Source: Omnitrophica bacterium GWA2_41_15 (lineage in GTDB: Bacteria > Omnitrophota > Gorgyraeia > Gorgyraeales > Gorgyraeaceae). From it: 32,057 nt of DNA. The stretch covers positions 1-32,057 of the forward strand of contig CAKKRB010000240.1 in the NCBI GenBank assembly GCA_919902485.1. The letters are read 5' to 3'. Position 1 is the first letter of the stretch; every line of letters begins with the position of its first letter. Positions 390 to 27,288 of the stretch are shown here, one piece after another. The notes beneath the pieces are model-generated. The model had not been told where the DNA came from. It did not search any database and worked only from the letters and a program-made list of their open reading frames with translations. The position numbers and the translations under genes are program-made.

Positions 390-1856
390 ATGGGTTACAA
401 AGAAGCTGTTGACTACATCAACTCCTTTATAAATTTCGAAAAGATCCCTAAATATCAATATACAGCTTCATTCAGGCTGGAGCGGATGGAAGCTATTTTA
501 GAGGAATTGGGCAATCCGCATAAAGGGCTTAACGCGATACACGTTGCAGGGTCTAAGGGCAAGGGTTCTACCTGTGCTATTACAGCTTATATTTTAAAGG
601 AGGCAGGATATAAGGTAGGATTGTATACTTCCCCGCATCTTTTAGATTTTAAGGAGAGAATTAGGATATTGTATAACCATCCTAATTGTGTAGGGAACGG
701 TTTTAAACCGTTCCCTACGGCTTTTGAAGGGATGATAAGCGAAGAAGAATTTATTGAACTCGTAGAAGAGATAATGCCTGTGGTGGAAAAATTCAGAGAA
801 CATAAAATTTTCGGCAAGGCGTCTTTTTTTGAAATAGTTACCGCATGCGCTTTTTTATATTTTAAGAAACAAAGAGTTGACGCAGTGGTTTTAGAAACAG
901 GGCTTGGCGGCAGGCTTGATGCGACAAATGCAGTAAAGCCTTTAGCGTGCGGAATAACAAACATAAGCCTTGAGCATACTGATAAATTAGGGGATACTCT
1001 TGAAAAGATTGCGTATGAGAAGGCGGGAATAATAAAAGGTGCCCCTCGACTTCGCTCGGGACGAGAAGGGTGGAGGGTGAAGGGTGGAGGGACGGTGGTT
1101 AGCGCAAGACAGGAAAAAGAGGCTGCTGAAACCATAAGAAAGGTTTGCAAAGAAAAGAACGCAGGATTATATGAAGTGGGCAAAGATATACAATATTCTA
1201 TTGTAAGCTCAGATGAGAATAGCCAGGTTTTTGATTTAGAAGGGCCAGGGTATTCATATAAAAACCTGGAGTTAAATTTGATAGGCATGCATCAGGTTGA
1301 AAATGCGGCTATTAGCATTGGTATAATAGAATCTCTGGGTGATAAATTTAAAATTAAGGAGTCGGACATAAGAAAAGGTTTAAAAAATGCAATATGGCCT
1401 GGAAGGCTGCAGGCGATCAGTAGAAATCCTTACATAATATTAGACGGCGCGCATAATTCTGCCAGTATTTCTGCATTGATTAGTTCTATAAAGAAACTGT
1501 TCAAATATAGAAAATTGATAAGCGTGTTCGGGATATCAAGCGACAAGGATGTAAAAGGAGTCAGCAGCATGCTGGGGGCTGTAAGCGATATAATGATATT
1601 AACCAGGGCAAAGGATAATCCCAGAGCCAAGGATACAGCAACACTAAAAGCTAATTTTAAAAAGCCAGAACTCATGCTTGAAGAAAGCAGTAATGCGGAT
1701 GAGGCTATAGAAAAGGCATTGAAACTTGCGGATAAAGAAGATTTAATACTGGTTACTGGCTCGCTGTTTCTGGTAGGCGATGCCATGAGCTATTTTAAAA
1801 ATGCAAAAGTTGAAACGTTAATTCACAAAACAAGTCATACTCGTTTTGTGAATTAA
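390..1856 (+). CDS. folC: Folylpolyglutamate synthase / dihydrofolate synthase (FolC, Mur-ligase family), lengthened by in-frame inserts
   Basis: P-loop HVAGSKGKGST, TSPHL, EKAGIIK and ILDGAHN motifs typical of FolC. 488 aa is longer than I recall for the family. Confidence 0.9.
   Translation: MGYKEAVDYINSFINFEKIPKYQYTASFRLERMEAILEELGNPHKGLNAIHVAGSKGKGSTCAITAYILKEAGYKVGLYTSPHLLDFKERIRILYNHPNCVGNGFKPFPTAFEGMISEEEFIELVEEIMPVVEKFREHKIFGKASFFEIVTACAFLYFKKQRVDAVVLETGLGGRLDATNAVKPLACGITNISLEHTDKLGDTLEKIAYEKAGIIKGAPRLRSGREGWRVKGGGTVVSARQEKEAAETIRKVCKEKNAGLYEVGKDIQYSIVSSDENSQVFDLEGPGYSYKNLELNLIGMHQVENAAISIGIIESLGDKFKIKESDIRKGLKNAIWPGRLQAISRNPYIILDGAHNSASISALISSIKKLFKYRKLISVFGISSDKDVKGVSSMLGAVSDIMILTRAKDNPRAKDTATLKANFKKPELMLEESSNADEAIEKALKLADKEDLILVTGSLFLVGDAMSYFKNAKVETLIHKTSHTRFVN
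690..718. repeat. 29-nt palindromic insert inside folC (gtagggaacgg-ttttaaa-ccgttccctac)
   Basis: Perfect 11-bp arms around TTTTAAA. Both strands translate to VGNG(F/L)KPFPT (compare the shadow ORF 587-1288). Confidence 0.85.
1041..1092 (-). repeat. GC-rich in-frame insert in folC. It holds a reverse-oriented copy of a hairpin module of the large element plus a tandem 14-nt direct repeat.
   Basis: The reverse complement of 1041-1062 is gtcccgagcgaagtcgaggggc, versus gtcccgagcgaagccgagggac at 283-304 and 27237-27258. 1065-1078 and 1079-1092 are gaagggtggaggg(t/a) twice. Confidence 0.8.
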
Positions 1857-1858
1857 CG
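1816..1858 (+). repeat. 43-nt AT-rich hairpin repeat, copy 1 (16-bp perfect stem, 11-nt loop), overlapping the folC 3' end and stop codon
   Basis: cgttaattcacaaaac / aagtcatactc / gttttgtgaattaacg, identical to 3328-3370. The folC TAA (1854-1856) lies in the 3' arm. Confidence 0.9.
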
Positions 1859-1864
1859 GGATAC

Positions 1865-3298
1865 ATGGTGTCTATTGTGAATAATATTTACTTAGATGAT
1901 ACGATTGCAGCGGTTTCAACTCCCATAGGCGAAGGCGGGATAGGGATTGTCAGGCTTAGCGGCAAGGACAGCCTGAAGATAGCGGACAAGGTATTCCAGT
2001 CTAAAGACGGCAAAAAATCTTCCAAATTCAAAACTTATACAGTTCACTATGGACACATTATACAAAAAGAGCACCAGAGCACCAGAGCACCAGAGCACCA
2101 GAAAGTTGTTGATGAAGTGATTTTAACAGTGATGAGGGGCCCGAGAAGTTATACCAAGGAGGATGTGGTTGAAATAAATTGTCATAGCGGGATAGCTCCT
2201 TTAAAAAAAATATTAGACCTTTGCCTTATAAACGGGGCAAGGCTTGCGGAACCAGGTGAATTCACGAGGAGGGCGTTTCTAAATGGAAGAATTGATGTTC
2301 TGCAGGCAGAAGCAGTGCTGGATATTATAAAGGCAAAGACAGAGCTTTCCCTGAGGTCTGCTTTGAATAACCTTGAAGGCCTTTTTTCAAAAAAGATAAA
2401 TGAGATCAGGGAGAGTTTGATTGAAATATATGCTTACATGGAGGCTTGTATAGATTTTTCAGAAGAGGATCTTAAGGGATTAAGGCAGGCTGATCTATTT
2501 AAAAGGTTAGATAAAATAAAAAGTGAAATAGAAAAGTTAATTTCAGGCTCAAATCAGGGCAGGATCTTGCGGCAGGGTATAAAAACAGTCATATGCGGCA
2601 GCCCTAATGTGGGCAAGTCCAGCCTTATGAACGCTATATTAAAGGAGTCCAGGTCTATTGTAACCCATATTCCAGGCACCACAAGGGATACAATAGAAGA
2701 GGTTGTGAATATTAAAGGCATACCTGTCACGCTTATTGATACAGCAGGCATAACAGACACAGACCATCCTGTGGAAAAGGAAGGCATAAGAAGAAGTCAT
2801 ATTTATTTAGGAAACGCAGATCTGGTTTTGCTGGTTTTAGACGGATCCAGAAGGCTTAATAAAGATGACCTGGATATAATAAGGAAAATAAGGGATAATA
2901 AGGAGATAATAGTTGTTATAAACAAAATAGACCTGAAAGTTAAATTGGATATAAAAAGGCTTAAGAAATTTTTTCCTAAAAGCTCTTTTATCCGCGTATC
3001 TGCTTTGAATTTAAAAGGCGTAAATAAGCTGGAGAATGAAATATGGGATACGGTATGGAAGGGCAAGGCTCCTGCTGGGGATTTCATAGGTGTTTCAAAT
3101 GAAAGGCAGCTTGAAATATTAAGAAGATGTATTTTAGATATAAATGAGGCAGTAAAGGCGCATAAAAGCAGCGTATCCATAGATTGCATAAGTGTTTATG
3201 TGCGCTCTAGCATAGAATCTCTGAGTGAGATAACAGGACATACGATAACTGAACAGGCGCTTGATAAGATATTTTCGAAATTTTGCATTGGCAAATAG
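1865..3298 (+). CDS. mnmE: tRNA modification GTPase MnmE (TrmE)
   Basis: G1 GSPNVGKSS, G3 DTAG, G4 NKID, and the C-terminal CIGK tetrapeptide characteristic of MnmE. Confidence 0.93.
   Translation: MVSIVNNIYLDDTIAAVSTPIGEGGIGIVRLSGKDSLKIADKVFQSKDGKKSSKFKTYTVHYGHIIQKEHQSTRAPEHQKVVDEVILTVMRGPRSYTKEDVVEINCHSGIAPLKKILDLCLINGARLAEPGEFTRRAFLNGRIDVLQAEAVLDIIKAKTELSLRSALNNLEGLFSKKINEIRESLIEIYAYMEACIDFSEEDLKGLRQADLFKRLDKIKSEIEKLISGSNQGRILRQGIKTVICGSPNVGKSSLMNAILKESRSIVTHIPGTTRDTIEEVVNIKGIPVTLIDTAGITDTDHPVEKEGIRRSHIYLGNADLVLLVLDGSRRLNKDDLDIIRKIRDNKEIIVVINKIDLKVKLDIKRLKKFFPKSSFIRVSALNLKGVNKLENEIWDTVWKGKAPAGDFIGVSNERQLEILRRCILDINEAVKAHKSSVSIDCISVYVRSSIESLSEITGHTITEQALDKIFSKFCIGK
2068..2102 (+). repeat. 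Octanucleotide tandem repeat (GCACCAGA x4, preceded by a partial unit AGA) inside mnmE
   Basis: Units at 2071-2078, 2079-2086, 2087-2094 and 2095-2102, read directly. Encodes KEHQSTRAPEHQK. Confidence 0.95.
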
Positions 3299-3327
3299 AT
3301 AGACAGGTTTTACAATGTTGTCCTAAT

Positions 3328-3380
3328 CGTTAATTCACAAAACAAGTCATACTCGTTTTGTGAATTAACGGGATTTTTTT
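3328..3380 (+). terminator. Copy 2 of the 43-nt hairpin repeat followed by a T7 run; intrinsic-terminator-like element after mnmE
   Basis: The same 16-bp stem (3328-3343 / 3355-3370), then gga + ttttttt (3374-3380), then an A8 run. Confidence 0.6.
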
Positions 3381-3404
3381 AAAAAAAATGGAGAGGGGGA
3401 AGAG

Positions 3405-3962
3405 ATGGACAAGGGTAAAATAAAGAAGGCAGTAAGGATGATTTTGGAAGCAGTTGGCGAAAACCCAAACAGGGAAGACCTTAAAAAAACGCCTGAAAGG
3501 GTAGCGGATATGTATGAGGAGATATTCAGCGGCATATCAAAGGATCCTGCAAGAGAATTAGAAGTGCTTCTGGCTGAAAAACACGATGAAATAGTGCTTT
3601 TAAAAGACATACCTTTATATTCTATATGCGAACACCATCTTTTGCCTTTCACAGGCAAAGCCCATATTGCTTATATACCTAAAAATAACAAGGTTACAGG
3701 CTTAAGCAAGATAACAAGAGTTCTAGAGATTCTTTCAAAGAGACTCCAGGTGCAGGAAAGACTTACAACTGAAGTAGCTGAAATACTCATGAAAAAACTA
3801 AAACCAATGGGCGTGATGGTTATTATAGAGGCAGAGCACCTTTGCATGAGCATGAGAGGGGTTAAAAAATCAGGTGTTTTAACAGTTACAAGCGCTGTGA
3901 GAGGTGTTTTTAAGGAAAATCAAAAAACAAGGGCAGAGACACTAGCCCTTATAAAGAGTTAA
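3405..3962 (+). CDS. folE: GTP cyclohydrolase I (FolE)
   Basis: 185 aa, CEHHLLPF active-site motif, strong GGAGAGGGGG Shine-Dalgarno region upstream. Confidence 0.92.
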   Translation: MDKGKIKKAVRMILEAVGENPNREDLKKTPERVADMYEEIFSGISKDPARELEVLLAEKHDEIVLLKDIPLYSICEHHLLPFTGKAHIAYIPKNNKVTGLSKITRVLEILSKRLQVQERLTTEVAEILMKKLKPMGVMVIIEAEHLCMSMRGVKKSGVLTVTSAVRGVFKENQKTRAETLALIKS

Positions 3963-4000
3963 AATCATACAATATAGTTTAAAAAAAGATAAAAAAAGTG

Positions 4001-4029
4001 TTGACAAATTATTTAATATAGGGTATACT
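4001..4029 (+). promoter_or_regulatory. Near-consensus sigma70-type promoter for the polysaccharide locus
   Basis: TTGACA (4001-4006), 17-nt spacer, TATACT (4024-4029), in an AT-rich intergenic region upstream of the first locus gene. Confidence 0.55.
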
Positions 4030-4091
4030 CTTCTCAAGGTTTGTATCCCTCGCAACTCCATGAAAAACATTATAGACGCTCGGAGGCAATA

Positions 4092-5261
4092 ATGAGAAAA
4101 GTATACCCCATATTTATTTTTATAATTTTTGTAAGTCTTTTATGCGCGCCATTTTTATATGCCATGGAACAGGAACCCAGGCCTGAAAAACCTAAGTTAT
4201 CCCCATGGGGCGAGATAAAACTCCAGTATGATGACAATGTTTTTCTGGACAGGGAAAACAAAAAGTCTGATTTTATAGTAACCTTGACCCCTGGAGTAAC
4301 TGCGTATCTTCCTTTTAGCGACAATCTTCTTAAGCTTGATTACCATGTAGATTTCAACAGGTTTGCGGACAATACATCGCAGAATGCTACAAATCATTAT
4401 CTTTCAGGAAATCTTGAACTAGACTGGAGGAACCTTACCTTTAATATATACGATAAATTCAGCCGCGCATTTGAAAGGCCAAGTACTGAAGATGCTACAA
4501 GGGTGAAGAGGCAGGATAACAGGGCAGGCATTACTGTAAATTTTCAAAAGGACAGGCTTGGCATACAGCTTGGTTTTGAGAATTTCAAGAGGGATTATAT
4601 AACACCTGCTTATGACCAGTATGACAGGACAGAATATATATATTCTTTAATGGCCACGCATCAGACATTCTCAAAAACAAAACTTCTCATGGAATACGAT
4701 TTTGGAGACATAAAGTATGATCATAGCACTACCAATTCTGATTCAAATTACCATCAATTGCTGGTTGGCGCTATAGGCGAACTTACGCCAAAGACAACAG
4801 CCGCTATAAAAGTTGGTACTCAGTTCAGAAATTACAAGGACTCAGGAATTCCTGAGTTCAATACGCTGGTAATTTACTCAGATATGATACATAAATTTTC
4901 AGACAAAGATGCTCTGAAGCTTTTATTTACCAGGACAGCCAATGAATCCACCTATCAAAATAACAGTTATTATGAATTAAACAACGTCAATGGAATCTAT
5001 GACCATTTCTTCACACCTAAATTACTCGGTTTTGTTACAGGCGTATATGAAGAGCATACTTATCCGCGCGAAAGCACAGAAGGGGCTGAAACCAAAAAGA
5101 GAGATGATAAATATTACTCAGCAGGCGCAGGCCTTAAGTATTATCTCCAGAAGTGGCTCACTCTTACTTTACAGGCAGAACACATTATAAGGAATTCAAA
5201 CTTCGGTGTGTTTGACTATCGCGATAATCTTATTACACTCAGCGCAAAAGCAGTATTGTAA
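4092..5261 (+). CDS. Putative outer-membrane beta-barrel protein of the polysaccharide export locus (the ATG at 4092 is preferred over the ORF-track start at 4041)
   Basis: N-terminal signal peptide MRKVYPIFIFIIFVSLLCAPFLYA. Alternating, aromatic-rich strands throughout. Located directly upstream of the Wza-like gene. Confidence 0.5.
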   Translation: MRKVYPIFIFIIFVSLLCAPFLYAMEQEPRPEKPKLSPWGEIKLQYDDNVFLDRENKKSDFIVTLTPGVTAYLPFSDNLLKLDYHVDFNRFADNTSQNATNHYLSGNLELDWRNLTFNIYDKFSRAFERPSTEDATRVKRQDNRAGITVNFQKDRLGIQLGFENFKRDYITPAYDQYDRTEYIYSLMATHQTFSKTKLLMEYDFGDIKYDHSTTNSDSNYHQLLVGAIGELTPKTTAAIKVGTQFRNYKDSGIPEFNTLVIYSDMIHKFSDKDALKLLFTRTANESTYQNNSYYELNNVNGIYDHFFTPKLLGFVTGVYEEHTYPRESTEGAETKKRDDKYYSAGAGLKYYLQKWLTLTLQAEHIIRNSNFGVFDYRDNLITLSAKAVL

Positions 5262-5276
5262 AAAAGGATCAATGTT

Positions 5277-5843
5277 ATGAAATTTTATATTTGTTTTTTT
5301 TGTTTCTTCATTATGTTTAACTTTTCAAATGTATTTTGTGAAGAGTATAAGATTGATACAGGCGATGTTCTTACAATAACCGTATACGAGCAGCAAGATC
5401 TTACAACAAAAGCAAGAGTTAACTCAAGAGGCGAGATTACTTTTCCTTTATTGGGCAATGTGCATGTAAGCGGGCTTACTATAGACGAGGTGGGTAAGAT
5501 TATAACAACTCTCTTGGAAAAAGATTATTTAGTTAATCCTCAAGTAAATGTTTTTATAGATACATATCATCCTGAAAAGGTATTTGTAATGGGTTTTGTG
5601 AACAGACCCGGGGAATATGAGCTTTCCAAAGACAGGCCAACCACATTTCTGGAAGCAATAACAATGGCAGGCGGCTTTAAACAGGGAGCAGCCCAGAACG
5701 GAACCAAGGTTATACGCGCAGAAGACGGGAAGGAAGTTACTATTCCTATAAGGGTTACAGATATAACGGAAAAAGGCGATAAGGAAAAAGATATTCCGCT
5801 TAAACCAGGCGATATTATTGTAGTGCCTGAAAGTTTCTTCTAA
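5277..5843 (+). CDS. Polysaccharide export protein, Wza/EpsE-like (Poly_export + SLBB)
   Basis: Signal peptide plus YKIDTGDVLTI, FPLLGNVHVSGLT and NRPGEY motifs typical of the family. Confidence 0.85.
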   Translation: MKFYICFFCFFIMFNFSNVFCEEYKIDTGDVLTITVYEQQDLTTKARVNSRGEITFPLLGNVHVSGLTIDEVGKIITTLLEKDYLVNPQVNVFIDTYHPEKVFVMGFVNRPGEYELSKDRPTTFLEAITMAGGFKQGAAQNGTKVIRAEDGKEVTIPIRVTDITEKGDKEKDIPLKPGDIIVVPESFF

Positions 5844-5856
5844 GGAGCAAGTAAGC

Positions 5857-7932: not shown

Positions 7933-7979
7933 ACAGGTCTAATATTTTTATTTTTTATCAGGAAATAACAGGTGGATTC

Positions 7980-8008: not shown

Positions 8009-8038
8009 ATCGGATAATATCATTACAAGGAGAAAAAA

Positions 8039-11370: not shown

Positions 11371-11383
11371 AAGCGGAGCTTAT

Positions 11384-16509: not shown

Positions 16510-17474
16510 AGAAAACAGACTTTAAAGATCTGGCGAAGGATGTGTTTTATTATTCAGGGATAGCAGGTTTATTTCTGCAGGTTGCAAAATTTTACAGGCA
16601 TCCGGCACTGTTAATACTTACCTATCACAGGGTATACGATTCTTTGGCTGATTATGAGTATCTGGGGGTTTCCAGAGATGTCTTTGAGAGCCATATAAAA
16701 TTTATAAAGGATAATTTTAAAGTTGTATCCATGCAGGAGGGAATAGGCGCTCTTTGCGAAATAAAATCAAAAGAGATCTATGCGGCAATTAACTTAGATG
16801 ACGGATATATGGATAATTATATCAATGCATTTCCTGTGTTAAAAAAATACAACATACCTGCCACAATTTTTCTTACAACTGATTTTATAGGTAAAAGCCA
16901 TATTTTCTGGTGGGACAGGGTTTTTAATATAATGTCTTTTGTCGGATCTAGCCGGCTGGAGAGCGGCATAGAAACTGACCGCATAGACAAGATTCTTGTA
17001 AATAAAAACGAAGATGAGATAGAAGGTTTTATCAGAGATATGGAGAAAAGATACGGATATAAAGAAAATCATGTACCATGTCCTATGCTTGGGTGGGCTG
17101 AGATAAAAGAGATGAGCAATTCTGGCATAAGTTTTGAGGCCCATACAAAAACCCATAAGAATCTATGCCTGCTGAAAGATAGGAAAGTCCTGGAAGAGCT
17201 TACAGGTTCAAAAAATGCGATAGAAGCTGGCTTGGGAAAAGAGGTGTTCGGTTTCAGTTATCCGTTTGGCATATTCGACCAGAGGATAAAGGGCCTGGTA
17301 AAGCAAGCTGGTTTTAAATATGCAAGGACTAGTTTCAAGGCATTTAATTATAAAGAAATAGACCCATTTTTATTATCCTGTATAGGAGCAGGGGCTGTAT
17401 CAAAGCCTAGTTTTCTTGCAGCAAGGCTTTCTTCAAGCTTGTTTAATACTGGCGGGAGGCAGCATGGATATTAA
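16500..17474 (+). CDS. Polysaccharide deacetylase (NodB/CE4-like)
   Basis: LTYHRV, NLDDGYMDNY and ATIFLTTDFIG motifs. Confidence 0.75.
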   Translation: MGLKKTDFKDLAKDVFYYSGIAGLFLQVAKFYRHPALLILTYHRVYDSLADYEYLGVSRDVFESHIKFIKDNFKVVSMQEGIGALCEIKSKEIYAAINLDDGYMDNYINAFPVLKKYNIPATIFLTTDFIGKSHIFWWDRVFNIMSFVGSSRLESGIETDRIDKILVNKNEDEIEGFIRDMEKRYGYKENHVPCPMLGWAEIKEMSNSGISFEAHTKTHKNLCLLKDRKVLEELTGSKNAIEAGLGKEVFGFSYPFGIFDQRIKGLVKQAGFKYARTSFKAFNYKEIDPFLLSCIGAGAVSKPSFLAARLSSSLFNTGGRQHGY

Positions 17475-18885
17475 AAATATAGGTATATACAGACAGGAAA
17501 GGCCGTCTTATTCAGAGAAAAAGCCGTATTTTCCTCCAGCTATTTTTGAAGAATACCCTTTTAATGACCGAAGTACAGATCAAAACAACTACGCATACAG
17601 CTCTATTAGAAATCTTCTTAAATTGCTAGAGCTTGATTCAGAAAATTTTGGGAAAAAATCCTGGAATCCTTTTGGATCTTTTATGAAACCAGGAGATACA
17701 GTATTGTTAAAGCCTAATCTTGTAAGGCATTTTTGCGAAAATGGAGATACAAAAGGACTTATGACCCATGGTTCTTTAATCAGGGCGGCGGCTGATTATG
17801 CTTATATAGCTTTGCAGGGAAAGGGCAGGATAATAATTGCTGATGGCCCTATGGATGACGCAGATTTTGAAAAAATAGCATCTATGTCAGGCATCTACGA
17901 AATCAGGGAATTCTACAAAGGCGAGACAGGTTTTGATATAGAGATATATGATTTGAGGCAGGAGATGGTTGTAAAAAAGCATGAAAAGATAGAGGAGAGA
18001 GTAAAGCTTGCAGGCGATCCTCTTGGATATAGCGCGGTAAATCTGGGGCCCATGAGCGCCTTTAAAAAAGGAGACCTGGATTATGCCTCTTTCAGAGGCT
18101 CTGAATGCAGGCCTGATATCATGTCCCTTCACCACAATAAAGAAAAGGACGAGTATTTAATCTCAAATACTTTTTTAAATGCAGACGTGGTTATAAATAT
18201 ACCTAAGATGAAGACTCACAAGAGGGCAGGCGTAACTCTTTCTCTTAAGAACCTGGTAGGTATTACAGGGGACAGGAATTGGCTGCCGCATTATAGTGAG
18301 AATGTGAGTTGTTCTAAAGTTCCACCCCGTAGGTGGCCAATTGGCCACCTACGGGGTGGAATTGAGGTTGTAAAGAATGCGATTGGGTTTATAAAACCTT
18401 TAAGAGACAGTTTAAGGCAGTTTACAGGTGTTACTGTATCTACAATGCGTTCAGGAAACTGGCATGGGAATGATATTATATGGCGCACTATCCTGGATCT
18501 CTGGAGAATAGCGTTATATGCAGATAAAAATGGAATAATGAGAAATGAAGAACAGAGAAAAACATTTGTAATAGTGGATGGCATTATTGGAGGAGAAGCA
18601 GACGGGCCTACAAACCCGACTGCTAAAAGATGCGGAGTCCTGGTAGCAGGATTCCACTGGCCTTCTGTGGATATTGCAGTAAGCCGCATCATGGGATTTG
18701 ATCCGATAAAGATCCCAAAATTTAAAGGATTTTCACATCTCGCGGACATACCCTGCGTGTCAAATATAAGAGAATGGGATAATAAAATTTCAGGATTTAA
18801 GGGCATGTGCCTGAATTTCAAACCGCATTATGGATGGAAAAAACATATAGAGGCTGACACAGATGTTAAAAAGCAAGATTTATAA
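17464..18885 (+). CDS. DUF362-domain protein (the ATG at 17464, with GGAGG 4 nt upstream, is preferred over the TTG at 17416)
   Basis: VLLKPNLV and INIPKMKTHKRAGVTLSLKNLVG motifs typical of DUF362. Contains an in-frame palindrome. Confidence 0.7.
   Translation: MDIKNIGIYRQERPSYSEKKPYFPPAIFEEYPFNDRSTDQNNYAYSSIRNLLKLLELDSENFGKKSWNPFGSFMKPGDTVLLKPNLVRHFCENGDTKGLMTHGSLIRAAADYAYIALQGKGRIIIADGPMDDADFEKIASMSGIYEIREFYKGETGFDIEIYDLRQEMVVKKHEKIEERVKLAGDPLGYSAVNLGPMSAFKKGDLDYASFRGSECRPDIMSLHHNKEKDEYLISNTFLNADVVINIPKMKTHKRAGVTLSLKNLVGITGDRNWLPHYSENVSCSKVPPRRWPIGHLRGGIEVVKNAIGFIKPLRDSLRQFTGVTVSTMRSGNWHGNDIIWRTILDLWRIALYADKNGIMRNEEQRKTFVIVDGIIGGEADGPTNPTAKRCGVLVAGFHWPSVDIAVSRIMGFDPIKIPKFKGFSHLADIPCVSNIREWDNKISGFKGMCLNFKPHYGWKKHIEADTDVKKQDL
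18320..18361. repeat. Perfect 42-nt palindrome inside the DUF362 CDS
   Basis: ttccaccccgtaggtggccaa|ttggccacctacggggtggaa, checked base by base. Both strands translate to PPRRWPIGHLRGG. Confidence 0.95.
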
Positions 18886-20245
18886 AAATAGTCCGGTGTT
18901 TATTCAAAATAGCCTTTTAACAGCAAGGGGCTTTATGTATAAGGTTTTACGCGAGTCCGGCGCATTCAGAAGCATGCTGTCTGAACTGGAACAGACTCAG
19001 CATTATACTGATTCCGAGATGCAGGAATGGCAGAATGAAAGACTTGTCCGTTTAGTGCGCCATGCTTATGAAAATGTGCCTTATTATAACAGGCTGTTCA
19101 AAAAAATGAAACTTTTGCCAGGCGATATCAAAAATGCAGAGGATTTGAAGAAACTGCCTTTTCTTACAAAGGAAGATGTAAGGGTAAATATAAACGATAT
19201 TACCGCTAAGAATATAAAAAAAGCTTTTGTAGAAAAAACATCTACCAGCGGAAGTTCTGGAAAGCCGCTTACCCTTTACAGGGATATTTATTCAGTAGTT
19301 TTTGAAAATGCGCTCCTGTGGAGACAGCGGCGCTGGATAGGCGTAGATATGACTGACAGGATAGCTGTATTAAGGTCAGAGCAGATTGTGCCCTTTGAGG
19401 CGGAGAAGCCTCCTTTTTGGCGGTATTCTGTTTCAGAAAAGAGGCTGCTTCTTTCTTCTTATCACCTCAGGAGGAATAATGCGGAATATTATATCGAGGC
19501 CCTGAACCGCTTCAAGCCGGCTGCGATATTTGCAATACCCGGAGTCATTTATGCCCTTGCAAAACTTGCTGAAGAAGAAGGATTATTGCCTTTTATATTC
19601 TCGGTAAAAGCAGTTTTCACCTCATCAGATATGATCAGACCTGGATATAAAGAAACCATAGAGAGAACATTTGGCGGGGCTATTTATGATTTATACGGCT
19701 CTACAGAAAGGGCAGCAGCAATAGGTATGTGTGAATACAAAACTTATCATGTGTTTCCGGAAAATGGAATCATAGAATTTGTGCCTGTAAGCAATGGCTC
19801 AGGAGCCATGGAAATCGTTGGAACCAATCTTCATAATTACGTAATGCCTCTTTTACGTTATCGCACCGGAGATCTTGCTGAGATTTCCAGCACGCCGTGC
19901 AGGTGCGGGAGGTGTTTTACTGCAGTCAAGAAAATGCAAGGCAGGATAGCTGATTTCATGGTATCCAGGAGCGGTGTTATCCTTATGGAGGGAAGCTACC
20001 TTCTTCTCAAAGGCGTTGAGAATATTGTGGAGTCTCAGATAATACAGGAAGATATTGAGAGGATAAAAGTGAAATTTATCCCAGCTGATAATTTTTCCGA
20101 GAGAGACAGGAATAAGATTATCGAAAATGCAAAGTTCTACCTTGGCCCGGGAGTCCATGTAGTGTTTGAAGAGGTAGAAGACATTCGGAAACAGGGCTTC
20201 TGCAAGTTCAGGCCGTTTATTTCGCATATAAATAATATCAGGTGA
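18863..20245 (+). CDS. Adenylate-forming enzyme of the PaaK / coenzyme F390 synthetase / CapK family
   Basis: TSTSGSSGKPL AMP-binding motif, YGSTE, and overall PaaK-like length and layout. Confidence 0.75.
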   Translation: MLKSKIYKNSPVFIQNSLLTARGFMYKVLRESGAFRSMLSELEQTQHYTDSEMQEWQNERLVRLVRHAYENVPYYNRLFKKMKLLPGDIKNAEDLKKLPFLTKEDVRVNINDITAKNIKKAFVEKTSTSGSSGKPLTLYRDIYSVVFENALLWRQRRWIGVDMTDRIAVLRSEQIVPFEAEKPPFWRYSVSEKRLLLSSYHLRRNNAEYYIEALNRFKPAAIFAIPGVIYALAKLAEEEGLLPFIFSVKAVFTSSDMIRPGYKETIERTFGGAIYDLYGSTERAAAIGMCEYKTYHVFPENGIIEFVPVSNGSGAMEIVGTNLHNYVMPLLRYRTGDLAEISSTPCRCGRCFTAVKKMQGRIADFMVSRSGVILMEGSYLLLKGVENIVESQIIQEDIERIKVKFIPADNFSERDRNKIIENAKFYLGPGVHVVFEEVEDIRKQGFCKFRPFISHINNIR

Positions 20246-20249
20246 CAGT

Positions 20250-21335
20250 ATGACAAAAGTTGTTCTTGTGATTTCAAAGATGGATATCGGAGGCGCAGAA
20301 AAGGTCTTTTATGATCTTGCCGAAAGATTAAGCCTGGATACCGGATACAGGGTTACTGTAGTATGTCTCTATGCGCAAGGCAGGCTTGGAGACAGTCTTG
20401 CGGCAAAAGGGGTGGAGATACATGAAAATATCTTAAAAGATAAATTTGACGCAGCAGGAATTTTCAGGTTAGCTGATATGCTCAGAGACAAAGCTCCAGA
20501 CATTCTTTATATCGCAGGCCAGGCTGTAACTCAAGCTGTTTGTCTGATAGCCGGTATATTTGTAAAGATACCTTTAAAAGTCATAGGTTTTCATTCTCAT
20601 AATCTGGTCCGGAGATCCTGGATAAAATCATTGACAGACAAGCTAAGCATATCCTCTGCAGGTTATATAACGTGTGTATCGGAATCCCAGAAGAAACATC
20701 TTGTTTCCGATAAGAGAGCGCAGTCTGAAAAAATAAAGGTTATCTACAATGGGGTAGATACCAAAATTTTTAAGCCATGCGCAAAAAAGGCTGATAATTC
20801 TATTGTTATAGGCGCAGTAGGTTCAATGAGAATGGAAAAAGGTTTTGATATTTTGATAAAGGCTATTCCCTGGGTTTTGAATAAATGCCCAAATGCTTTT
20901 TTTATGATGATAGGGGAAGGCAAAGAAAAAAATAACCTTGAGAAACTGGCATCTAATCTAAAGGTGGATTCAAGTGTCAGATTTCTTGGCCAGAGAGAGG
21001 ATATCTCTGAGATCATACCAGCGTTTGATATTGCCTGCTCAAGTTCCAGGATAGAAAATTTCCCTCTTTCTATACTTGAATACATGGCGTGCGCTAAACC
21101 GGTAGTGGCTACAAAAATAGGGGGAGTGCCTGAGATGGTTAAGGATGGATTTAACGGAGTTGCGGTTGATGCAGAATCTCCTGAAGCTTTAGCAAAAGCC
21201 ATAGTATGTCTGATAAATGATAAAGAATTGAGAAAAACCATGGGCATTAACGCCAGAAAGACTGTAGAGGAAAATTTTACAGTTGAAAAGATGGTGCAAA
21301 ACTATAAGGATTTTTTTAGAGATATACAAAAATGA
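20250..21335 (+). CDS. GT4-family glycosyltransferase
   Basis: ENFPLSILEYMACAKPVVATKIGGVPEMVKDGFNG (E-x7-E region). Confidence 0.85.
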   Translation: MTKVVLVISKMDIGGAEKVFYDLAERLSLDTGYRVTVVCLYAQGRLGDSLAAKGVEIHENILKDKFDAAGIFRLADMLRDKAPDILYIAGQAVTQAVCLIAGIFVKIPLKVIGFHSHNLVRRSWIKSLTDKLSISSAGYITCVSESQKKHLVSDKRAQSEKIKVIYNGVDTKIFKPCAKKADNSIVIGAVGSMRMEKGFDILIKAIPWVLNKCPNAFFMMIGEGKEKNNLEKLASNLKVDSSVRFLGQREDISEIIPAFDIACSSSRIENFPLSILEYMACAKPVVATKIGGVPEMVKDGFNGVAVDAESPEALAKAIVCLINDKELRKTMGINARKTVEENFTVEKMVQNYKDFFRDIQK

Positions 21336-24300
21336 GAATTTTGATTACTACAACCTTAAATAAAAATATGACAGAGGCAAAGATAAAGCCGCTCTTGATG
21401 CTGCCTGAAGTGGAACAGGTATTCTATGTGTCTGACATGCCAGGCCCGTATTTTGAAAAAGTCAGATATTATTGCATGCCTGGCTGGATATTGAGATCCT
21501 GCAGGAATAATTCATTGGTAAGATGGACATATAAATTTTTTACAGCCGGATATCTGGCTTTATCCAAAAGACCAGATATGATTATGGGTTATGCATTGAT
21601 ACCTCACGGTATAAATGCGGTTTTAATAGGTAAATTGCTGAATATCCCTGTATGCGTAAATTTTATGGGCGGGAGTTTTTTAATAGAGAGCATAAATCCA
21701 TTATTGAGAAAGCTGGTTTTAAGAATAGCTGATATGGCAGACATAATCACTGTCACAGGCTCGCGCACCAGGGATTTACTTGTATCAAAAGGTATCAAAG
21801 CAGGCAAGATAAAAATAATATCCAGCACTATAGATACAAAAAGGTTTTTCCCGCAGCATCTGGATAAGCAATACGACATTATCGCAGTGGCTCAGTTGAA
21901 TCACGGCAAAAGAATAAGCATGTTTCTTGATATCATTTCCAGGCTTAAAAAATCCGGCATCAATTTGAAAGCTGTGATAGCAGGGGACGGCTGTTTAAAA
22001 AAAGACCTTGAGGAGTTATCAGAAAAAATAGGACTTCTGGAAAATGTATATTTTGCCGGATTCCAGCCTGATATTGAAAAATTTCTTAATGAGTCGAGGG
22101 TATTTTTGCTGCCTACGGCTCATGAAGGCTTGTCGCTTGCAATGCTTGAGGCAATGGCATGCGGGGTTGTGCCTGTTGTTTCAAACGTGGACAACCTTTC
22201 TGATGCGGTAAAAGACAGGTTTAGCGGAAGATTGATAGACAGGGATGATACAGAAGGGTTTGTTTCAGCTGTTTCTGAGTTATTAAAGGATAAAAGTATA
22301 TATGAAACTTATGCGAAAAATTCAGTTAATACTATAAATGAACTTTATACAATTAATAATGCGGCTCAAAAATGGACAGAGATTTTAAAACCCTCACCCC
22401 AACCCTCTCCCATAAATGGGAGAGGGAGATTGTATCATTGGTATTTTAAAAGGTTAATGGCTATGAGCGCCGAGGAGGTTATTTACAAGGCAATAGGGAT
22501 TTTAAGAAAGAAGATTTTATATTTTAAAGCAATCTCATTGGATAAGAAAATATTTTCATCTTCAATCAACAATAGAAAACCTGTATTTTTCATAGATAAA
22601 CAAGATCTGGATTTTATAAGAGAGAATATTAAAAGATCTGATTCTGTTACGCATCCCCTCACCCCTGCCCTCTCCCATAAATGGGAGAGGGGGGTTACTC
22701 TTTTAGATGACATAAAACGCAGGGCAGGCTTTTCTGATTTTGAAATCAGGGCAATATGGGAACCTAACAGGTTTCAGTGGTTTGTGAGTTATGCCCAGAT
22801 ATATGCCCTGGATAGAGATGAAAAAATAGCAAAAGATATAGTTGGTGTATTAAATGATTGGATATCAAGAAACCCATTTATGAAGACCTTGAACTGGATG
22901 GACAGTCTGGAGGTTTCTTTGCGGCTTTTATCCTGGTCATGGATATATTTTTTGATAAAAGATTCAAAATCTATGGATGTTGATTTTGAAAGAGTATTTT
23001 TGAAAAGCATATATCTGCATGCGGAGTTTATAAAAAACAACCTGTCTGGTTATTCATCTGCTAATAATCATCTGATAGGGGAAGCAGCAGGCCTGTTTGC
23101 GGCGGGTATCCTGTTTCCAGTATTCAAGGCGTCTTCTGCATGGACAAAGAAAGGCAAGTTTATACTTGAGAGGGAGATGATAAGACAGGTATATCCTGAC
23201 GGCGTGGATAAAGAGCAATCGAGCCATTATCATGAGTTTGTAATGGACTTGTATCTGATAGCGGTTATTCTGGCAAGAAAGAACAGCATTGTATTTTCAG
23301 AAGAAATGCTTTTAAGGCTGAACCGCATGGGTGAATTTTTGATAAGCATAATGGGCCAAAAAGGTAAAACCCTGTCCATAGGAGACAGCGATGACGGGGT
23401 TGCTTTAAAATTCGGGGTATCAGAAGAAGCGCAGAACGCCGTTTCTCTTATAAATACAGCCTGCATCCTGTTTAACAGGCCTGATTTTAAAATATGCGGA
23501 GATTATCTGGATGAAAAAAGCCTATGGTTAATGGGTTATGAAGGTTATGCCAAGTATTCTGCAATGGAAAAAGCTGATTCTAAGCAGGGATCAAAATGTT
23601 TTTCAGAAAGCGGTTATTATATCATGAGAAACAGGGAATTATGCATTAGCTTTGATTGCGGGGGTTTGGGTTATTTATCTCTTGCCAGCCATGGCCATGC
23701 AGACAGCCTGAGCATAAACCTGAACGTCTGGGAAATGCCTGTTTTTATAGATCCGGGCACGTACCTGTATCATTCATGCGGCAAGTGGAGGGATTATTTC
23801 CGCGGCACTTCAGCTCATAATACAATTAAGATTGACAAGCTGGATCAATCAGAGATAGAAGGGCCTTTCTTATGGGGTTATAAAGCCAGGTCTTTTCTCA
23901 AATACTGGTCCCAGAATTGCAGGATTGACAGGGTGTGCGGTTATCACACAGGCTATACGAGATTAAGCGACCCGGTTTCGCATGCCAGAGGTATTACATT
24001 CGATAAATATAATAATGAAATAGTGATAACAGACAGCATTTTTTCTAAAAAAAGACATCTTGTGGAGCAATTCTTTCATCTGCATCCGGATTGTTCTGTG
24101 GAACAATTAGATAGTCATTCATTCGAGATTATCAATGCAGCAGGGAACAGGCATGCCTGTTCCCTGCATATGGAAATAGACAAGGGCCTTGATTCGCATA
24201 TTTTAAAAGGCTCTGAGTCGCCTATTGCAGGGTGGTATTCTGATAAGTTTGGAGAAAAACAAAAAACAATCACAATTTGCAATAGCTCTTATTCAAAAGG

Positions 24301-24406
24301 CCAAAGAAATTTTATTACAAAGATAAAAATCTCTAACAATGTTATTGCGAGGAGCGGAGCGACGAAGCAATCTGAAAAGGAGATTGCTTCGCTTCGCTCG
24401 CAATGA
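21332..24406 (+). CDS. Fusion protein: N-terminal GT4 glycosyltransferase (about aa 1-350) and C-terminal heparinase II/III-like polysaccharide lyase (about aa 370-1005)
   Basis: GT part: HEGLSLAMLEAMACGVVPVVSNV. Lyase part: NNHLIGEAAGL and SHGHADSLSINL motifs. The junction and the 3' end are formed by palindromic elements. Confidence 0.8.
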   Translation: MRILITTTLNKNMTEAKIKPLLMLPEVEQVFYVSDMPGPYFEKVRYYCMPGWILRSCRNNSLVRWTYKFFTAGYLALSKRPDMIMGYALIPHGINAVLIGKLLNIPVCVNFMGGSFLIESINPLLRKLVLRIADMADIITVTGSRTRDLLVSKGIKAGKIKIISSTIDTKRFFPQHLDKQYDIIAVAQLNHGKRISMFLDIISRLKKSGINLKAVIAGDGCLKKDLEELSEKIGLLENVYFAGFQPDIEKFLNESRVFLLPTAHEGLSLAMLEAMACGVVPVVSNVDNLSDAVKDRFSGRLIDRDDTEGFVSAVSELLKDKSIYETYAKNSVNTINELYTINNAAQKWTEILKPSPQPSPINGRGRLYHWYFKRLMAMSAEEVIYKAIGILRKKILYFKAISLDKKIFSSSINNRKPVFFIDKQDLDFIRENIKRSDSVTHPLTPALSHKWERGVTLLDDIKRRAGFSDFEIRAIWEPNRFQWFVSYAQIYALDRDEKIAKDIVGVLNDWISRNPFMKTLNWMDSLEVSLRLLSWSWIYFLIKDSKSMDVDFERVFLKSIYLHAEFIKNNLSGYSSANNHLIGEAAGLFAAGILFPVFKASSAWTKKGKFILEREMIRQVYPDGVDKEQSSHYHEFVMDLYLIAVILARKNSIVFSEEMLLRLNRMGEFLISIMGQKGKTLSIGDSDDGVALKFGVSEEAQNAVSLINTACILFNRPDFKICGDYLDEKSLWLMGYEGYAKYSAMEKADSKQGSKCFSESGYYIMRNRELCISFDCGGLGYLSLASHGHADSLSINLNVWEMPVFIDPGTYLYHSCGKWRDYFRGTSAHNTIKIDKLDQSEIEGPFLWGYKARSFLKYWSQNCRIDRVCGYHTGYTRLSDPVSHARGITFDKYNNEIVITDSIFSKKRHLVEQFFHLHPDCSVEQLDSHSFEIINAAGNRHACSLHMEIDKGLDSHILKGSESPIAGWYSDKFGEKQKTITICNSSYSKGQRNFITKIKISNNVIARSGATKQSEKEIASLRSQ
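22391..22428 (+). repeat. GC-rich hairpin element, copy 1 (ccctcacccc aa ccctctccca-taaa-tgggagaggg), at the GT/lyase junction
   Basis: 10-bp stem 22403-22412 / 22417-22426. Encodes PSPQPSPINGRGR. Confidence 0.9.
22655..22693 (+). repeat. GC-rich hairpin element, copy 2, inside the lyase N-terminal region
   Basis: cccctcacccctg ccctctccca-taaa-tgggagaggg gg. The stem is identical to copy 1. Encodes PLTPALSHKWERG. Confidence 0.9.
24344..24404. repeat. Imperfect 61-nt GC-rich hairpin element spanning the 3' end and stop codon of the GT-lyase gene
   Basis: Outer 8 bp attgcgag/ctcgcaat, inner 10 bp gaagcaatct/agattgcttc, asymmetric internal loop, apical loop gaaaagg. Translates to ...ARSGATKQS... 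and LRFARNDK in two frames. Confidence 0.85.
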
Positions 24407-27286: not shown

Positions 27287-27288
27287 TA

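What the first reader, a model, noticed from the sequence alone, without database searches (positions are those of the whole stretch)
690..24406. Small palindromic or repeat elements repeatedly inserted in-frame in protein-coding genes (analogous to Rickettsia palindromic elements)
At least seven GC-rich or palindromic tracts lie inside intact ORFs without breaking the frame. They are folC 690-718 and 1041-1092, mnmE 2068-2102, DUF362 18320-18361, and GT-lyase 22391-22428, 22655-22693 and 24344-24404. The hairpin 1816-1858 additionally supplies the folC C-terminus. Essential housekeeping genes are affected, not only accessory ones. In-frame palindromic element insertion into genes is established for Rickettsia (RPEs) and occurs sporadically elsewhere. 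This density, in one 32-kb window and involving several unrelated element families, is striking.
Basis: partly seen in the sequence, partly recalled or inferred. Interest (0 to 1): 0.72.

Follow-up and report, generated by a model that had tools for sequence, protein, structure and literature searches.

The report
In-frame mini-repeats in Omnitrophota genes
A groundwater Omnitrophota bacterium carries tiny DNA hairpins and 7- or 8-base tandem repeats inside intact genes, read as extra floppy protein loops; this extends a habit known from Rickettsia, with an unusual heptamer-repeat twist.

Summary
Every listed tract exists at its coordinates, inside or at the 3' end of an intact, conserved gene of a Candidatus Omnitrophota contig. 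I found one more internal tract, at 24140-24167.

Orthologue alignments show each tract lies where close relatives lack it or carry unrelated sequence. A strain 96% identical has a different insert at folC site 1. It lacks exactly 24 nt at folC site 2.

There are two kinds of tract:
- REP-like perfect palindromes. They belong to families with copies in other genes, in intergenic spacers and in other Omnitrophota genomes, and their arms show compensatory changes.
- Tandem 7-mer or 8-mer arrays in in-frame lengths. They occupy the same three FolC and MnmE loops in most of the 17 lineages compared. A 20-24 nt element is nested in some of them.

AlphaFold models put four of the five modelled tracts in low-confidence loops, linkers or tails. 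The fifth lies in a beta-hairpin turn.

My best reading is that these are selfish or neutral small repeats, kept only where they stay in frame in permissive loops, and translated.

The Rickettsia analogy holds for function but not for family membership. Intragenic REPs are already described, including in the PVC bacterium Opitutus. In-frame heptamer arrays in housekeeping genes with nested mini-elements look unreported. Interest is moderate.

The parts
690..718 (+). Perfect palindrome GTAGGGAACGGTTT-T-AAACCGTTCCCTAC in folC (site 1), read as VGNGFKPFPT. It belongs to the GYAGG...TTTAAA...CCTRC family.
   Evidence: It lies in an 18-aa segment absent from T. maritima FolC. Strain L001 (96% identical) has (GGGTGRA)n there instead.
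1040..1063 (+). Small GC-rich element (core CCCTCGACTTCGCTCGGGAC) in folC site 2, nested in a heptamer array.
   Evidence: A net 24-nt presence/absence difference against strain L001. The same element is in frame in L004 purH and in L014 mnmE. The core occurs in at least 120 metagenome stretches with 31-70% GC among the 80 read.
1064..1092 (+). Tandem heptamer array (AAGGGTG/GAGGGTG, four G3 tracts) in folC site 2, read as GWRVKGGG.
   Evidence: TRF period 7/14. Related AAGGNTN arrays occupy the same site in 8 of the 16 related loci.
1816..1858 (+). AT-rich 20-bp-stem hairpin at the folC 3' end. It encodes the last 13 residues and the stop.
   Evidence: Relatives end at about YFKN. L003 has a different hairpin doing the same.
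3328..3370 (+). Second copy (98% over 50 nt) of the same hairpin, intergenic after mnmE.
   Evidence: D5, I1.
2068..2102 (+). Tandem octamer array (AGAGCACC)x4.4 in mnmE, read as EHQSTRAPEHQ.
   Evidence: It lies in a loop 8-10 aa longer than in solved MnmE structures. The same site holds 7- or 8-mer arrays in 9 of the 14 more distant loci (L004, L006, L007, L003, L013, L010, L014; L017, L024) and also in L012.
18320..18361 (+). 42-nt perfect palindrome (CGTAGGT type) in the DUF362 gene, read as VPPRRWPIGHLRGG.
   Evidence: The region is hypervariable in 28 homologues, and the 88%-identical P0002 has unrelated sequence. It falls in the only long pLDDT<50 segment of the model.
22391..22428 (+). 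Hairpin element CCCTCACCCCAACCCTCTCCC-ATAAAT-GGGAGAGGG, copy A, in the GT/heparinase linker. Read as PSPQPSPINGRGR.
   Evidence: Absent from the 85%-identical P0121. Present at the same site in L206, where the tract is at least 90% identical against 68% for the gene, and read in a different frame. pLDDT<50 at residues 354-370.
22655..22693 (+). Copy B of the same element (90% identical to A), read in another frame as HPLTPALSHKWERG.
   Evidence: pLDDT<50 at residues 436-476. It replaces a native ..IDWxxD.. segment seen in 15 homologues.
24140..24167 (+). 28-nt perfect palindrome GCAGGGAACAGGCATGCCTGTTCCCTGC in the heparinase C-terminal domain. Adds 5 aa (AGNRHAC).
   Evidence: Absent from P0121 and 15 other homologues, present in P0122/L206. 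It lies in a turn between two predicted strands.
24344..24404 (+). Hairpin element TTGCGAGGAGCGGAGCGACGAAGCAATC...GATTGCTTCGCTTCGCTCGCAA at the gene's 3' end. Supplies an 18-aa tail and the stop.
   Evidence: Relatives lack the tail. L206 has a GTAGGGCAG palindrome in that spacer instead. Related copies are in L005 and L206.
30827..30857 (+). Intergenic member of the palindrome family (TGCAGGGGAGGGTTT-T-AAACCCTCCCCTGCA), between the sugar-transferase gene and the SurA-like gene.
   Evidence: The orthologous spacer in L206 holds GTAGGGGAGGTTTAAACCTCCCCTAC, which differs by a compensatory change.
26905..27288 (+). GC-rich composite repeat of about 384 nt with 31-nt terminal inverted repeats. It contains two copies of the small element core.
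   Evidence: (D1, D6, I3).
1..345 (+). Partial second copy of the same composite repeat at the contig end, upstream of folC.
   Evidence: (D1 98% over 197 nt).

Best explanation
The window is a complete 32-kb contig of a groundwater Candidatus Omnitrophota bacterium. It carries folC, mnmE and an exopolysaccharide locus. Its genome, like those of its relatives, holds two kinds of very small repeats.

1. REP-like hairpins and perfect palindromes of 24-61 nt, in several families. One family carries a GTAG/GYAG tag.
2. Tandem arrays of 7-nt (sometimes 8-nt) units.

Both kinds arise and turn over quickly. The palindromes spread by some copying or transposition process, or by template switching. The arrays change by slippage, unequal exchange and occasional conversion between arrays. 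Small elements land preferentially inside arrays.

Most copies lie in spacers and at gene 3' ends. Copies inside genes persist only when their net length keeps the frame, they contain no stop, and they fall in a surface loop, an inter-domain linker or a terminus. There they are transcribed and translated as short, mostly hydrophilic or Pro/Gly/Arg-rich, disordered peptides that the enzyme tolerates.

Selection therefore acts as a filter. The same few permissive loops (two in FolC, one in MnmE, one in DUF362, the GT-heparinase linker) become hot spots that are occupied again and again.

Shown:
- The tracts exist.
- They are non-native.
- They differ between strains.
- They belong to repeat families.
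- They sit in frame.
- They fall in loops or other low-confidence regions.

Inferred: that they are translated, that they are neutral, and how they move.
For: Identity and hosts:
- The organism is Omnitrophota, and folC-mnmE synteny is conserved.
- Pfam domains continue in frame after every tract.

Non-native:
- Solved FolC and MnmE structures lack the segments.
- In the alignment of 17 Omnitrophota FolC and 18 MnmE sequences the three sites vary in length and sequence between strongly conserved flanks.
- The DUF362 and GT-lyase tracts are absent from 88%- and 85%-identical homologues.

Strain level:
- Every indel in 3.6 kb against a 96%-identical strain falls in the tracts or in the upstream GC-rich repeat. 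One indel is a clean 24-nt element difference.

Families:
- The GYAGG palindrome has 7 members in 5 genomes. Some are genic and some intergenic. The outer 9 bp show no mismatch, with compensatory changes at four positions.
- The 20-nt core sits in three different genes of three genomes, each time inside a 7/8-mer array.
- An identical 34-nt heptamer block occurs in both folC and mnmE of L004.

Enrichment:
- Perfect palindromes: 6 in the window against 0.06 expected.
- Strong period-7 arrays: 33 per 372 kb in Omnitrophota loci against 3 per 515 kb in Bacillaceae loci. Of the 7/8-family arrays, 34 of 40 lie inside long ORFs.

Permissive sites:
- pLDDT is below 50 at the DUF362 tract, at GT-lyase sites A and B, and at the C-terminal tail. 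Site C lies in a hairpin turn.

The peptide is not what is conserved:
- The same hairpin element is read in two different frames in four copies. The third frame has a stop.

Precedent:
- Intragenic REPs, suggested to lie in flexible linkers or loops, are described for Opitutus terrae (PVC) and R. conorii (PMC3733652).
Against: - No mobilising enzyme (RAYT/Y1 transposase, reverse transcriptase) is in the window. The rest of the genome could not be searched.
- There are no target-site duplications, so no mobility mechanism is demonstrated.
- The site-A element is at least 90% identical between genomes whose host gene is 68% identical. Orthologous spacer palindromes keep perfect pairing through compensatory change. 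A purely neutral insert should decay, so this points to homogenisation, re-insertion or function at the nucleic-acid level.
- folC site-2 arrays in different lineages look related (AAGGNTN). That fits an old array evolving in place rather than repeated insertion.
- Translation is inferred only from frame preservation. There are no proteomic data.
- The enrichment figures come from loci chosen around folC-mnmE, so the three hot spots are sampled repeatedly.
Confidence: 0.7

Rival explanations
1. The hairpins are functional nucleic-acid signals kept by selection, and the encoded peptide is only a by-product. Possible roles are mRNA-stabilising or pausing structures, intra-operon attenuators, binding sites for a nucleoid or REP-binding protein, or recombination sites. 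This is compatible with a selfish origin but differs on why they persist.
For: - The site-A element is at least 90% identical against 68% for the gene.
- The same element is conserved although read in different frames.
- Palindromes at orthologous spacers keep perfect pairing through compensatory changes.
- Hairpins sit directly after folC, mnmE and the GT-lyase gene, where REPs typically act (PMC3733652).
Against: - Close relatives and a 96%-identical strain do without individual copies.
- Different, unrelated elements occupy the same position in different genomes.
- There is no Rfam match.
- The hairpins after folC and mnmE have no T-run of a terminator.
Confidence: 0.2
2. The 7-mer and 8-mer arrays are contingency loci. 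Gain or loss of one unit shifts the frame and switches folC, mnmE or other genes on and off (phase variation).
For: - Unit sizes are not multiples of three.
- Arrays have 3-8 copies and lie inside ORFs.
- Arrays are the most variable sites between lineages.
Against: - Every array examined at the three FolC/MnmE sites is in frame.
- The mnmE array is identical in three assemblies.
- The strain difference at folC site 2 is 24 nt, not 7.
- The hosts are single-copy housekeeping genes, where switching off would be costly.
Confidence: 0.06
3. The tracts are ordinary native variable loops. Their palindromic or repetitive look is coincidental or produced locally, and nothing is mobile.
For: - Most of the Omnitrophota loci compared have some variable sequence at these sites.
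- folC site-2 arrays may descend from one ancestral array.
- There are no target-site duplications.
Against: - Palindromes are about 100-fold over expectation.
- The same sequences occur in unrelated genes, in spacers and in other genomes.
- The element shows a clean presence/absence difference between strains.
Confidence: 0.03
4. The tracts are not translated. They are spliced out or bypassed, as with byp elements or GC clusters of yeast mitochondria. Alternatively they are assembly artefacts.
For: They are GC-rich structured inserts in AT-rich genes, which superficially resembles byp elements.
Against: - All seven internal tracts in the window, and every insert variant seen in relatives, keep the frame and lack stops. 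This would be unnecessary if they were removed.
- Identical sequence is found in independent assemblies.
Confidence: 0.01

Closest known systems
Rickettsia palindromic elements (RPEs; Ogata et al. 2000, cited in PMC3733652)
   Same: - Both are palindromic repeats inserted in frame in many unrelated genes, including housekeeping ones.
- The genes stay intact.
- The extra peptide sits in loops.
- Several families coexist.
   Different: - The elements here are 24-61 nt. RPE-1 is about 100-150 nt by my recollection.
- The phylum is different (Omnitrophota, free-living or host-associated in groundwater).
- No sequence relationship was tested.
- Heptamer and octamer arrays are part of the picture here.
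GTAG-tagged REPs, thought to be mobilised by RAYT tyrosine transposases, including intragenic REPs of Opitutus terrae (Di Nocera et al. 2013, PMC3733652)
   Same: - Both are small GC-rich stem-loops carrying a GTAG/GYAG motif.
- Families show complementary stem changes.
- Most copies lie after genes, and a minority lie inside genes in frame.
- They are known from the PVC superphylum.
   Different: - Here the tag is present on both arms and is base-paired, because the palindromes are perfect. In REPs it is a single unpaired tag.
- Arms are 13-21 bp, against stems of 6-13 bp.
- Copy number and the presence of a RAYT gene are unknown.
Small dispersed repeats (SDR, 21-27 nt) of Nostocaceae (Elhai et al. 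2008). The paper was not held, so its content is from my memory. One search confirms only that SDR5 inserts in HIP1.
   Same: - Both are very small elements (here 20-24 nt).
- Both are found embedded in tandem heptamer arrays and nested in larger repeats.
   Different: - Those are cyanobacterial and mostly intergenic. Here the elements sit in frame in conserved genes of another phylum.
- A common fold for the 20-nt core was not established.
- No HIP1-like octamer exists here.
Heptamer direct repeats of cyanobacteria, Xanthomonas, Beggiatoaceae and Bacteroidetes (PMC4692102; PMC4679880)
   Same: - Both are tandem 7-nt units, often G-rich. The window's GGGTGRA array has four G3 tracts and so fits a G-quadruplex motif.
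- Units are lineage-specific.
- Copy number is variable.
   Different: Those repeats are over-represented in spacers and under-represented on the coding strand. Here 34 of 40 strong 7/8-family arrays lie inside long ORFs, in frame, in housekeeping genes.

Membership tests
Rickettsia palindromic elements (RPE) | Palindromic repeat inserted in frame in intact ORFs | tested here: met
   Five internal palindromic or element tracts (four palindrome/hairpin copies and one small non-palindromic element) plus two 7/8-mer arrays, seven sites in all, keep the frame, and domains continue after them.
Rickettsia palindromic elements (RPE) | Insert lies at the protein surface or in a loop | tested here: met
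   AF2 gives pLDDT<50 at the DUF362 tract, GT-lyase sites A and B, and the tail. Site C is in a hairpin turn. FolC and MnmE sites align to gaps in solved structures.
Rickettsia palindromic elements (RPE) | Element length of about 100-150 nt and sequence homology to RPE-1..8 of Rickettsia | tested here: not met
   The tracts are 24-61 nt and the organism is Omnitrophota. Direct comparison with RPE sequences was not possible. The RPE length figure is from memory.
GTAG-type REP (RAYT-associated) | Short stem-loop with a terminal GTAG (or GYAG) tetranucleotide | tested here: inconclusive
   The GYAGG...CCTRC family and the CGTAGGT palindromes carry the motif. It is on both arms and paired, not a single unpaired tag as defined in PMC3733652.
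GTAG-type REP (RAYT-associated) | Family members differ by complementary stem changes | tested here: met
   Seven members show no mismatch in the outer 9 bp. Both-sided changes occur at positions 2, 6, 7 and 9.
GTAG-type REP (RAYT-associated) | High copy number in the genome and a RAYT gene present | not testable with these tools
   Only a 32-kb contig is available, holding 3 copies of the family. No transposase is in the window.
Cyanobacterial SDR elements | 21-27 nt dispersed element embedded in tandem heptamers | tested here: met
   The core element lies inside 7/8-mer arrays in window folC, L004 purH and L014 mnmE. In metagenome contigs below 50% GC, 4 of 22 copies exceed the random 95th percentile at lag 7, which is only a modest enrichment.
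Cyanobacterial SDR elements | Confined to Nostocaceae, with a shared fold supported by covariation | tested here: not met
   The host is Omnitrophota. The core occurs in contigs of 31-70% GC. I found no consistent hairpin for the 20-nt core by inspection.
Heptamer SSRs (STRR, GGGNATC, TAACTGA types) | Tandem 7-nt units, several copies | tested here: met
   TRF finds period 7/14/21 arrays at 8.9 per 100 kb in Omnitrophota loci, against 0.58 in Bacillaceae loci.
Heptamer SSRs (STRR, GGGNATC, TAACTGA types) | Predominantly intergenic and avoided on the coding strand | tested here: not met
   34 of 40 strong 7/8-family arrays lie inside ORFs of at least 150 aa, in contrast with PMC4692102.

The most novel reading that the evidence does not exclude
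Omnitrophota, and perhaps many other phyla, may host a class of ultra-small mobile elements of about 20-40 nt. The evidence for wider spread is that the 20-nt core CCYTCGACTTCGCTCRRGAY occurs in metagenome contigs from 31 to 70% GC. These elements would use tandem heptamer arrays and hairpins as landing pads, and would be kept uniform by copying from master copies, not by descent. Their in-frame colonisation of the same loops of essential enzymes would be an ongoing, semi-targeted process that builds fast-evolving protein loops. This would be more than passive survival of random insertions.
Probability: 0.15. Interest if true: 0.8.

Novelty: new variant of a known kind. Interest (0 to 1): 0.55.

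Why it matters
If it holds, in-frame colonisation of genes by mini-repeats is not a Rickettsia oddity. It would be a regular feature of a large, uncultured, small-celled phylum.

It also provides natural maps of where FolC, MnmE and other enzymes tolerate insertions.

Practical consequences:
- These tracts inflate apparent protein divergence.
- They break assemblies. This contig ends in a repeat.
- They create spurious ORF extensions in MAG annotation.

The link between heptamer arrays and nested 20-nt elements, previously reported (as I recall it) only for Nostoc spacers, may point to a shared and still unknown mechanism for making and moving very small repeats.

Tried and rejected
- Target-site duplications: flanks of 11 elements were compared with random positions. 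Only the DUF362 palindrome reached p~0.02, which is not significant after multiple testing.
- HIP1-like hyper-abundant octamer as an insertion site: GTTTAAAC was found 15 times against 10.6 expected, so it is not enriched.
- Known RNAs or tRNAs: no Rfam hit at gathering threshold and no tRNA.
- Heptamer periodicity next to the cosmopolitan 20-mer in 80 metagenome contigs: my first strict test found nothing. A percentile test gave a modest signal only in contigs below 50% GC (4 of 22 at lag 7, 3 of 22 at lag 8) and none in high-GC contigs. The visual impression was therefore toned down.
- Nucleotide-level empty sites for the DUF362 and GT-lyase tracts: the closest homologues (P0002, P0121; sample ERZ1426815) have no DNA on file.
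- BLAST of the GC-rich repeat against plasmids: no match.
- Elhai et al. 2008 could not be read. Two full-text searches for descriptions of it returned noise.
- GC-richness as a detector of inserts: rejected, because several GC-rich stretches are conserved native codons.
- L097 (a VLSEVEG segment in what looks, by eye only, like a P-type ATPase): it may be native sequence, so I did not count it as an insertion.


Full report
**What the window is.** The 32,057-nt window is a whole metagenome contig. The longest contig carrying its DUF362 protein is 32,057 nt. It has 38-40% GC, and all long ORFs that match protein families lie on the + strand. Proteins identical to its MnmE occur on contigs from Hainich groundwater assemblies. 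The closest genomes are Candidatus Omnitrophota MAGs, with MnmE 78-81% identical and folC-mnmE synteny conserved. Pfam identifies folC, mnmE, folE and a long exopolysaccharide locus. That locus includes Wza-like, Wzc-like and Wzy-like genes, a flippase, several GT4 genes, a deacetylase, DUF362, a GT1-heparinase II/III fusion, UDP-glucose dehydrogenase and a priming sugar transferase. No transposase is present.

**Check of the observation.** The window has six perfect palindromes with arms of at least 11 nt, against 0.06 in dinucleotide shuffles. It has 22 near-perfect hairpins against 7.9. Contig L002, from another assembly, is 100% identical over 3,609 nt including the folC and mnmE tracts, so these tracts are not assembly noise. 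Three corrections apply:
- The mnmE tract is a tandem octamer, (AGAGCACC)x4.4.
- The 1041-1092 tract is composite, a roughly 24-nt element followed by (GGGTGRA)x4.
- A further internal palindrome lies at 24140-24167.

The palindrome at 30827-30857 looks genic in a mechanical ORF list. It is in fact intergenic, because the SurA-like lipoprotein starts at 30886.

**Are the tracts native? FolC and MnmE.** No. Against solved structures, FolC has an extra 18 aa and an extra 15 or so aa exactly at the two tracts, and MnmE has 8-10 extra aa. I aligned FolC and MnmE from the window, strain L001 and 15-16 further Omnitrophota loci. In that alignment the three sites are the only places where length and sequence vary freely between almost invariant flanks. 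Strain L001 is 95.9% identical over 3.6 kb, and every indel falls in the tracts or in the upstream GC-rich repeat. At folC site 1 the palindrome is replaced by (GGGTGRA)n. At site 2 exactly 24 nt, the small element, are missing. The hairpin at 1816-1858 does encode the last 13 FolC residues. Relatives stop at about YFKN.

**Are the tracts native? DUF362 and GT-lyase.** In DUF362, the stretch after the invariant NWLPH is hypervariable in all 28 homologues. The 88%-identical P0002 has unrelated sequence where the window has VPPRRWPIGHLRGG. The GT1-heparinase fusion itself is conserved in all 18 aligned sequences, at roughly 1,000 aa each. Its four sites behave as follows:
- Site A is empty in the 85%-identical P0121.
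- Site B holds a variant of the element in P0121 and 1.5 copies in P0122. The other 15 homologues have a native ..IDWxxD.. segment of similar length, so this is a replacement.
- Site C adds 5 aa, seen only in the window and P0122.
- The 3' hairpin adds an 18-aa tail seen nowhere else.

**Two kinds of tract: arrays.** Reading the DNA at the FolC and MnmE sites in all lineages shows that about half of the 48 site-lineage instances are tandem 7-mers, sometimes 8-mers, in in-frame lengths. Examples:
- (CAGCTGT)x4 in L026 folC.
- (GACAGAG)x8 in L013 mnmE.
- (AAAAGKC)x5-6 in L004.
- (AAGACAC-A/G)x4 in L010.

In a TRF comparison, strong period-7 arrays number 33 in 372 kb of Omnitrophota loci and 3 in 515 kb of Bacillaceae loci fetched by the same query. 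Of the strong 7/8-family arrays, 34 of 40 lie inside ORFs of at least 150 aa. A caveat is that the three hot sites are sampled in many loci. The folC site-2 arrays of different lineages share a degenerate AAGGNTN unit, which fits an old array evolving in place. L004, however, has an identical 34-nt block (AAAAGTCAAAAGTCAAAAGGCAAAAGGCAAAAGT) in both folC and mnmE, 980 nt apart. Arrays are therefore also copied between sites.

**Two kinds of tract: palindromes and the small core.** The palindromes fall into families:
- GYAGG-N-(G)GTTTAAAC(C)-N-CCTRC has seven members in five genomes. They lie in window folC, L015 folC, and spacers in the window, L011 (two copies), L033 and L206. The outer nine base pairs show no mismatch, with both-sided changes at four positions.
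- A CGTAGGT type links the DUF362 palindrome to spacer palindromes in L011, L083 and L085.

The 20-nt core CCYTCGACTTCGCTCRRGAC occurs in frame in window folC, in the L004 purH linker and in L014 mnmE. Each time it sits inside a 7/8-mer array. In the first two cases it is followed by the same GAAGGGTGGAGGGTGAA.

**Where the inserts sit in the proteins.** The DUF362 model has mean pLDDT 85. Its only long segment below 50 is residues 280-305, which contains the palindrome-encoded residues 286-299. The GT-lyase model has mean pLDDT 73. It has segments below 50 at 354-370 (site A), 436-476 (site B) and 1004-1024 (the tail). Site C lies in the turn between two strands. This is the pattern suggested for intragenic REPs and recalled for RPEs.

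**What is conserved is DNA, not peptide.** L206 is a relative whose GT-lyase gene is 68% identical at the DNA level. It carries the same hairpin element at sites A and B. The site-A element is at least 90% identical while its flanks are clearly less conserved than the element. A 1-nt indel makes it read in a different frame. Across four copies, two of the three frames are used, and the third contains TAA. The orthologous spacer between the sugar-transferase and SurA-like genes holds the same palindrome family in both genomes, differing by a compensatory C-G to T-A change. After the GT-lyase gene, each genome has a different hairpin family. So some copies are old or are kept uniform, and a role for the hairpins at the DNA or RNA level cannot be dismissed. 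The block 24119-24338 is at least 90% identical as a whole. Site C is therefore shared by descent or recombination and is not an independent event.

**Explanation.** The best-supported reading is a filter model. Small repeats arise and move all over these genomes. Inside genes, only in-frame, stop-free copies in permissive loops, linkers or termini survive, and they are translated as disordered peptides. Frame preservation in all seven internal tracts, and in every variant seen in relatives, argues for translation and against splicing or bypass. The mechanism of spread is not shown: there are no target-site duplications, no transposase in the window, and no HIP1-like target. Phase variation by the 7/8-mers is possible in principle but has no support, since all arrays are in frame and the mnmE array is identical in three assemblies.

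**Comparison with what is known.**
- Di Nocera et al. (PMC3733652) define GTAG/GYAG-tagged REPs and note complementary stem variants. They report intragenic REPs in several species, most in Opitutus terrae (PVC superphylum) and R. conorii, and propose that these lie in flexible linkers or loops. The palindromes here work like those, but their tag is paired and present on both arms. Copy number and a RAYT gene could not be tested, so I do not file them as members.
- They are not RPEs by size or lineage.
- Heptamer repeats are known from Nostoc, Xanthomonas, Beggiatoaceae and Bacteroidetes, but as spacer features under-represented on the coding strand (PMC4692102, PMC4679880). In-frame arrays in housekeeping genes are the unusual part.
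- Small elements embedded in heptamer arrays recall the SDR elements of Nostoc (Elhai et al. 2008). I could not read that paper and cite its content from memory. One search confirms only that SDR5 inserts in HIP1.
- My full-text searches found no description of this in Omnitrophota.

**The cosmopolitan core.** The 80 contigs I read range from 31 to 70% GC, and the core is often present as inverted pairs or tandem copies. In a 35% GC contig (L151) it lies, together with heptamers, in frame in what looks like a GT2 gene, judged by eye without a domain search. Enrichment of heptamer periodicity beside it is modest and confined to low-GC contigs. What this element is remains open.

**Verdict.** The palindromic part is a new member of a known kind, intragenic REPs. 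The in-frame heptamer and octamer arrays with nested mini-elements, at loops that are hot spots in most of the lineages compared, are a new variant. Interest is 0.55.

Noticed in passing
window 26905-27288 and 1-345: A GC-rich composite repeat of about 384 nt with 31-nt terminal inverted repeats lies between two EPS genes. It looks like a MITE and contains nested small elements. A second, partial copy (98% over 197 nt) forms the contig end upstream of folC, so the assembly probably broke in this repeat.
   Followed up: partly
window 27106-29352, 24339-25685, 30820-31440: Mechanical ORFs run upstream into repeat elements. From signal peptides, RBS and domain positions, the likely true starts are about 27310 (GH5-like protein), 24427 (UDP-glucose dehydrogenase) and 30886 (SurA-like lipoprotein). 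Repeats create spurious N-terminal extensions.
   Followed up: partly
metagenome loci L086-L165: The 20-nt core CCYTCGACTTCGCTCRRGAY occurs in at least 120 metagenome stretches. Among the 80 read, GC ranges from 31 to 70%, and the core often appears as inverted pairs around a variable loop or in tandem (27- or 37-nt period). It resembles the window's 3' hairpin (GTCATTGCGAGCGAAGCGAAGCAATC). I could not put a name to it.
   Followed up: partly
L004 5190-5223 and 6170-6203: An identical 34-nt heptamer block sits in two different genes (folC, mnmE) of one genome, 980 nt apart. This implies copying between arrays.
   Followed up: yes
window 1064-1092; L001 about 438-470: The GGGTGRA arrays carry four or five G3 tracts on the coding strand. 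That matches a canonical G-quadruplex motif in both DNA and mRNA, inside folC.
   Followed up: no
L001 3708-9725 versus window 3962-4041: The 96%-identical strain has five extra polysaccharide genes (flippase, Wzy, GT and others) between folE and the porin gene. The EPS locus therefore differs in gene content between strains.
   Followed up: no
window 24119-24338 versus L206: A block of about 220 nt at the 3' end of the GT-lyase gene is at least 90% identical to a genome that is 68% identical over the gene. In that block the window's protein is closer to the 65%-identical homologue than to the 85%-identical one, which suggests recombination.
   Followed up: partly
window 4838-4859: A near-perfect (one mismatch) 22-nt palindrome, GGACTCAGGAATTCCTGAGTTC, lies inside the beta-barrel porin gene. 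It lies within the stretch that aligns without gaps to strain L001. I did not test whether it is an insert.
   Followed up: no
L011 4589-5926 (folC site 1): A tandem duplication of a 36-nt GC-rich unit containing a hairpin (CCCGTACC..GGGTACGGG) adds about 25 aa in frame to FolC of another Omnitrophota MAG.
   Followed up: no
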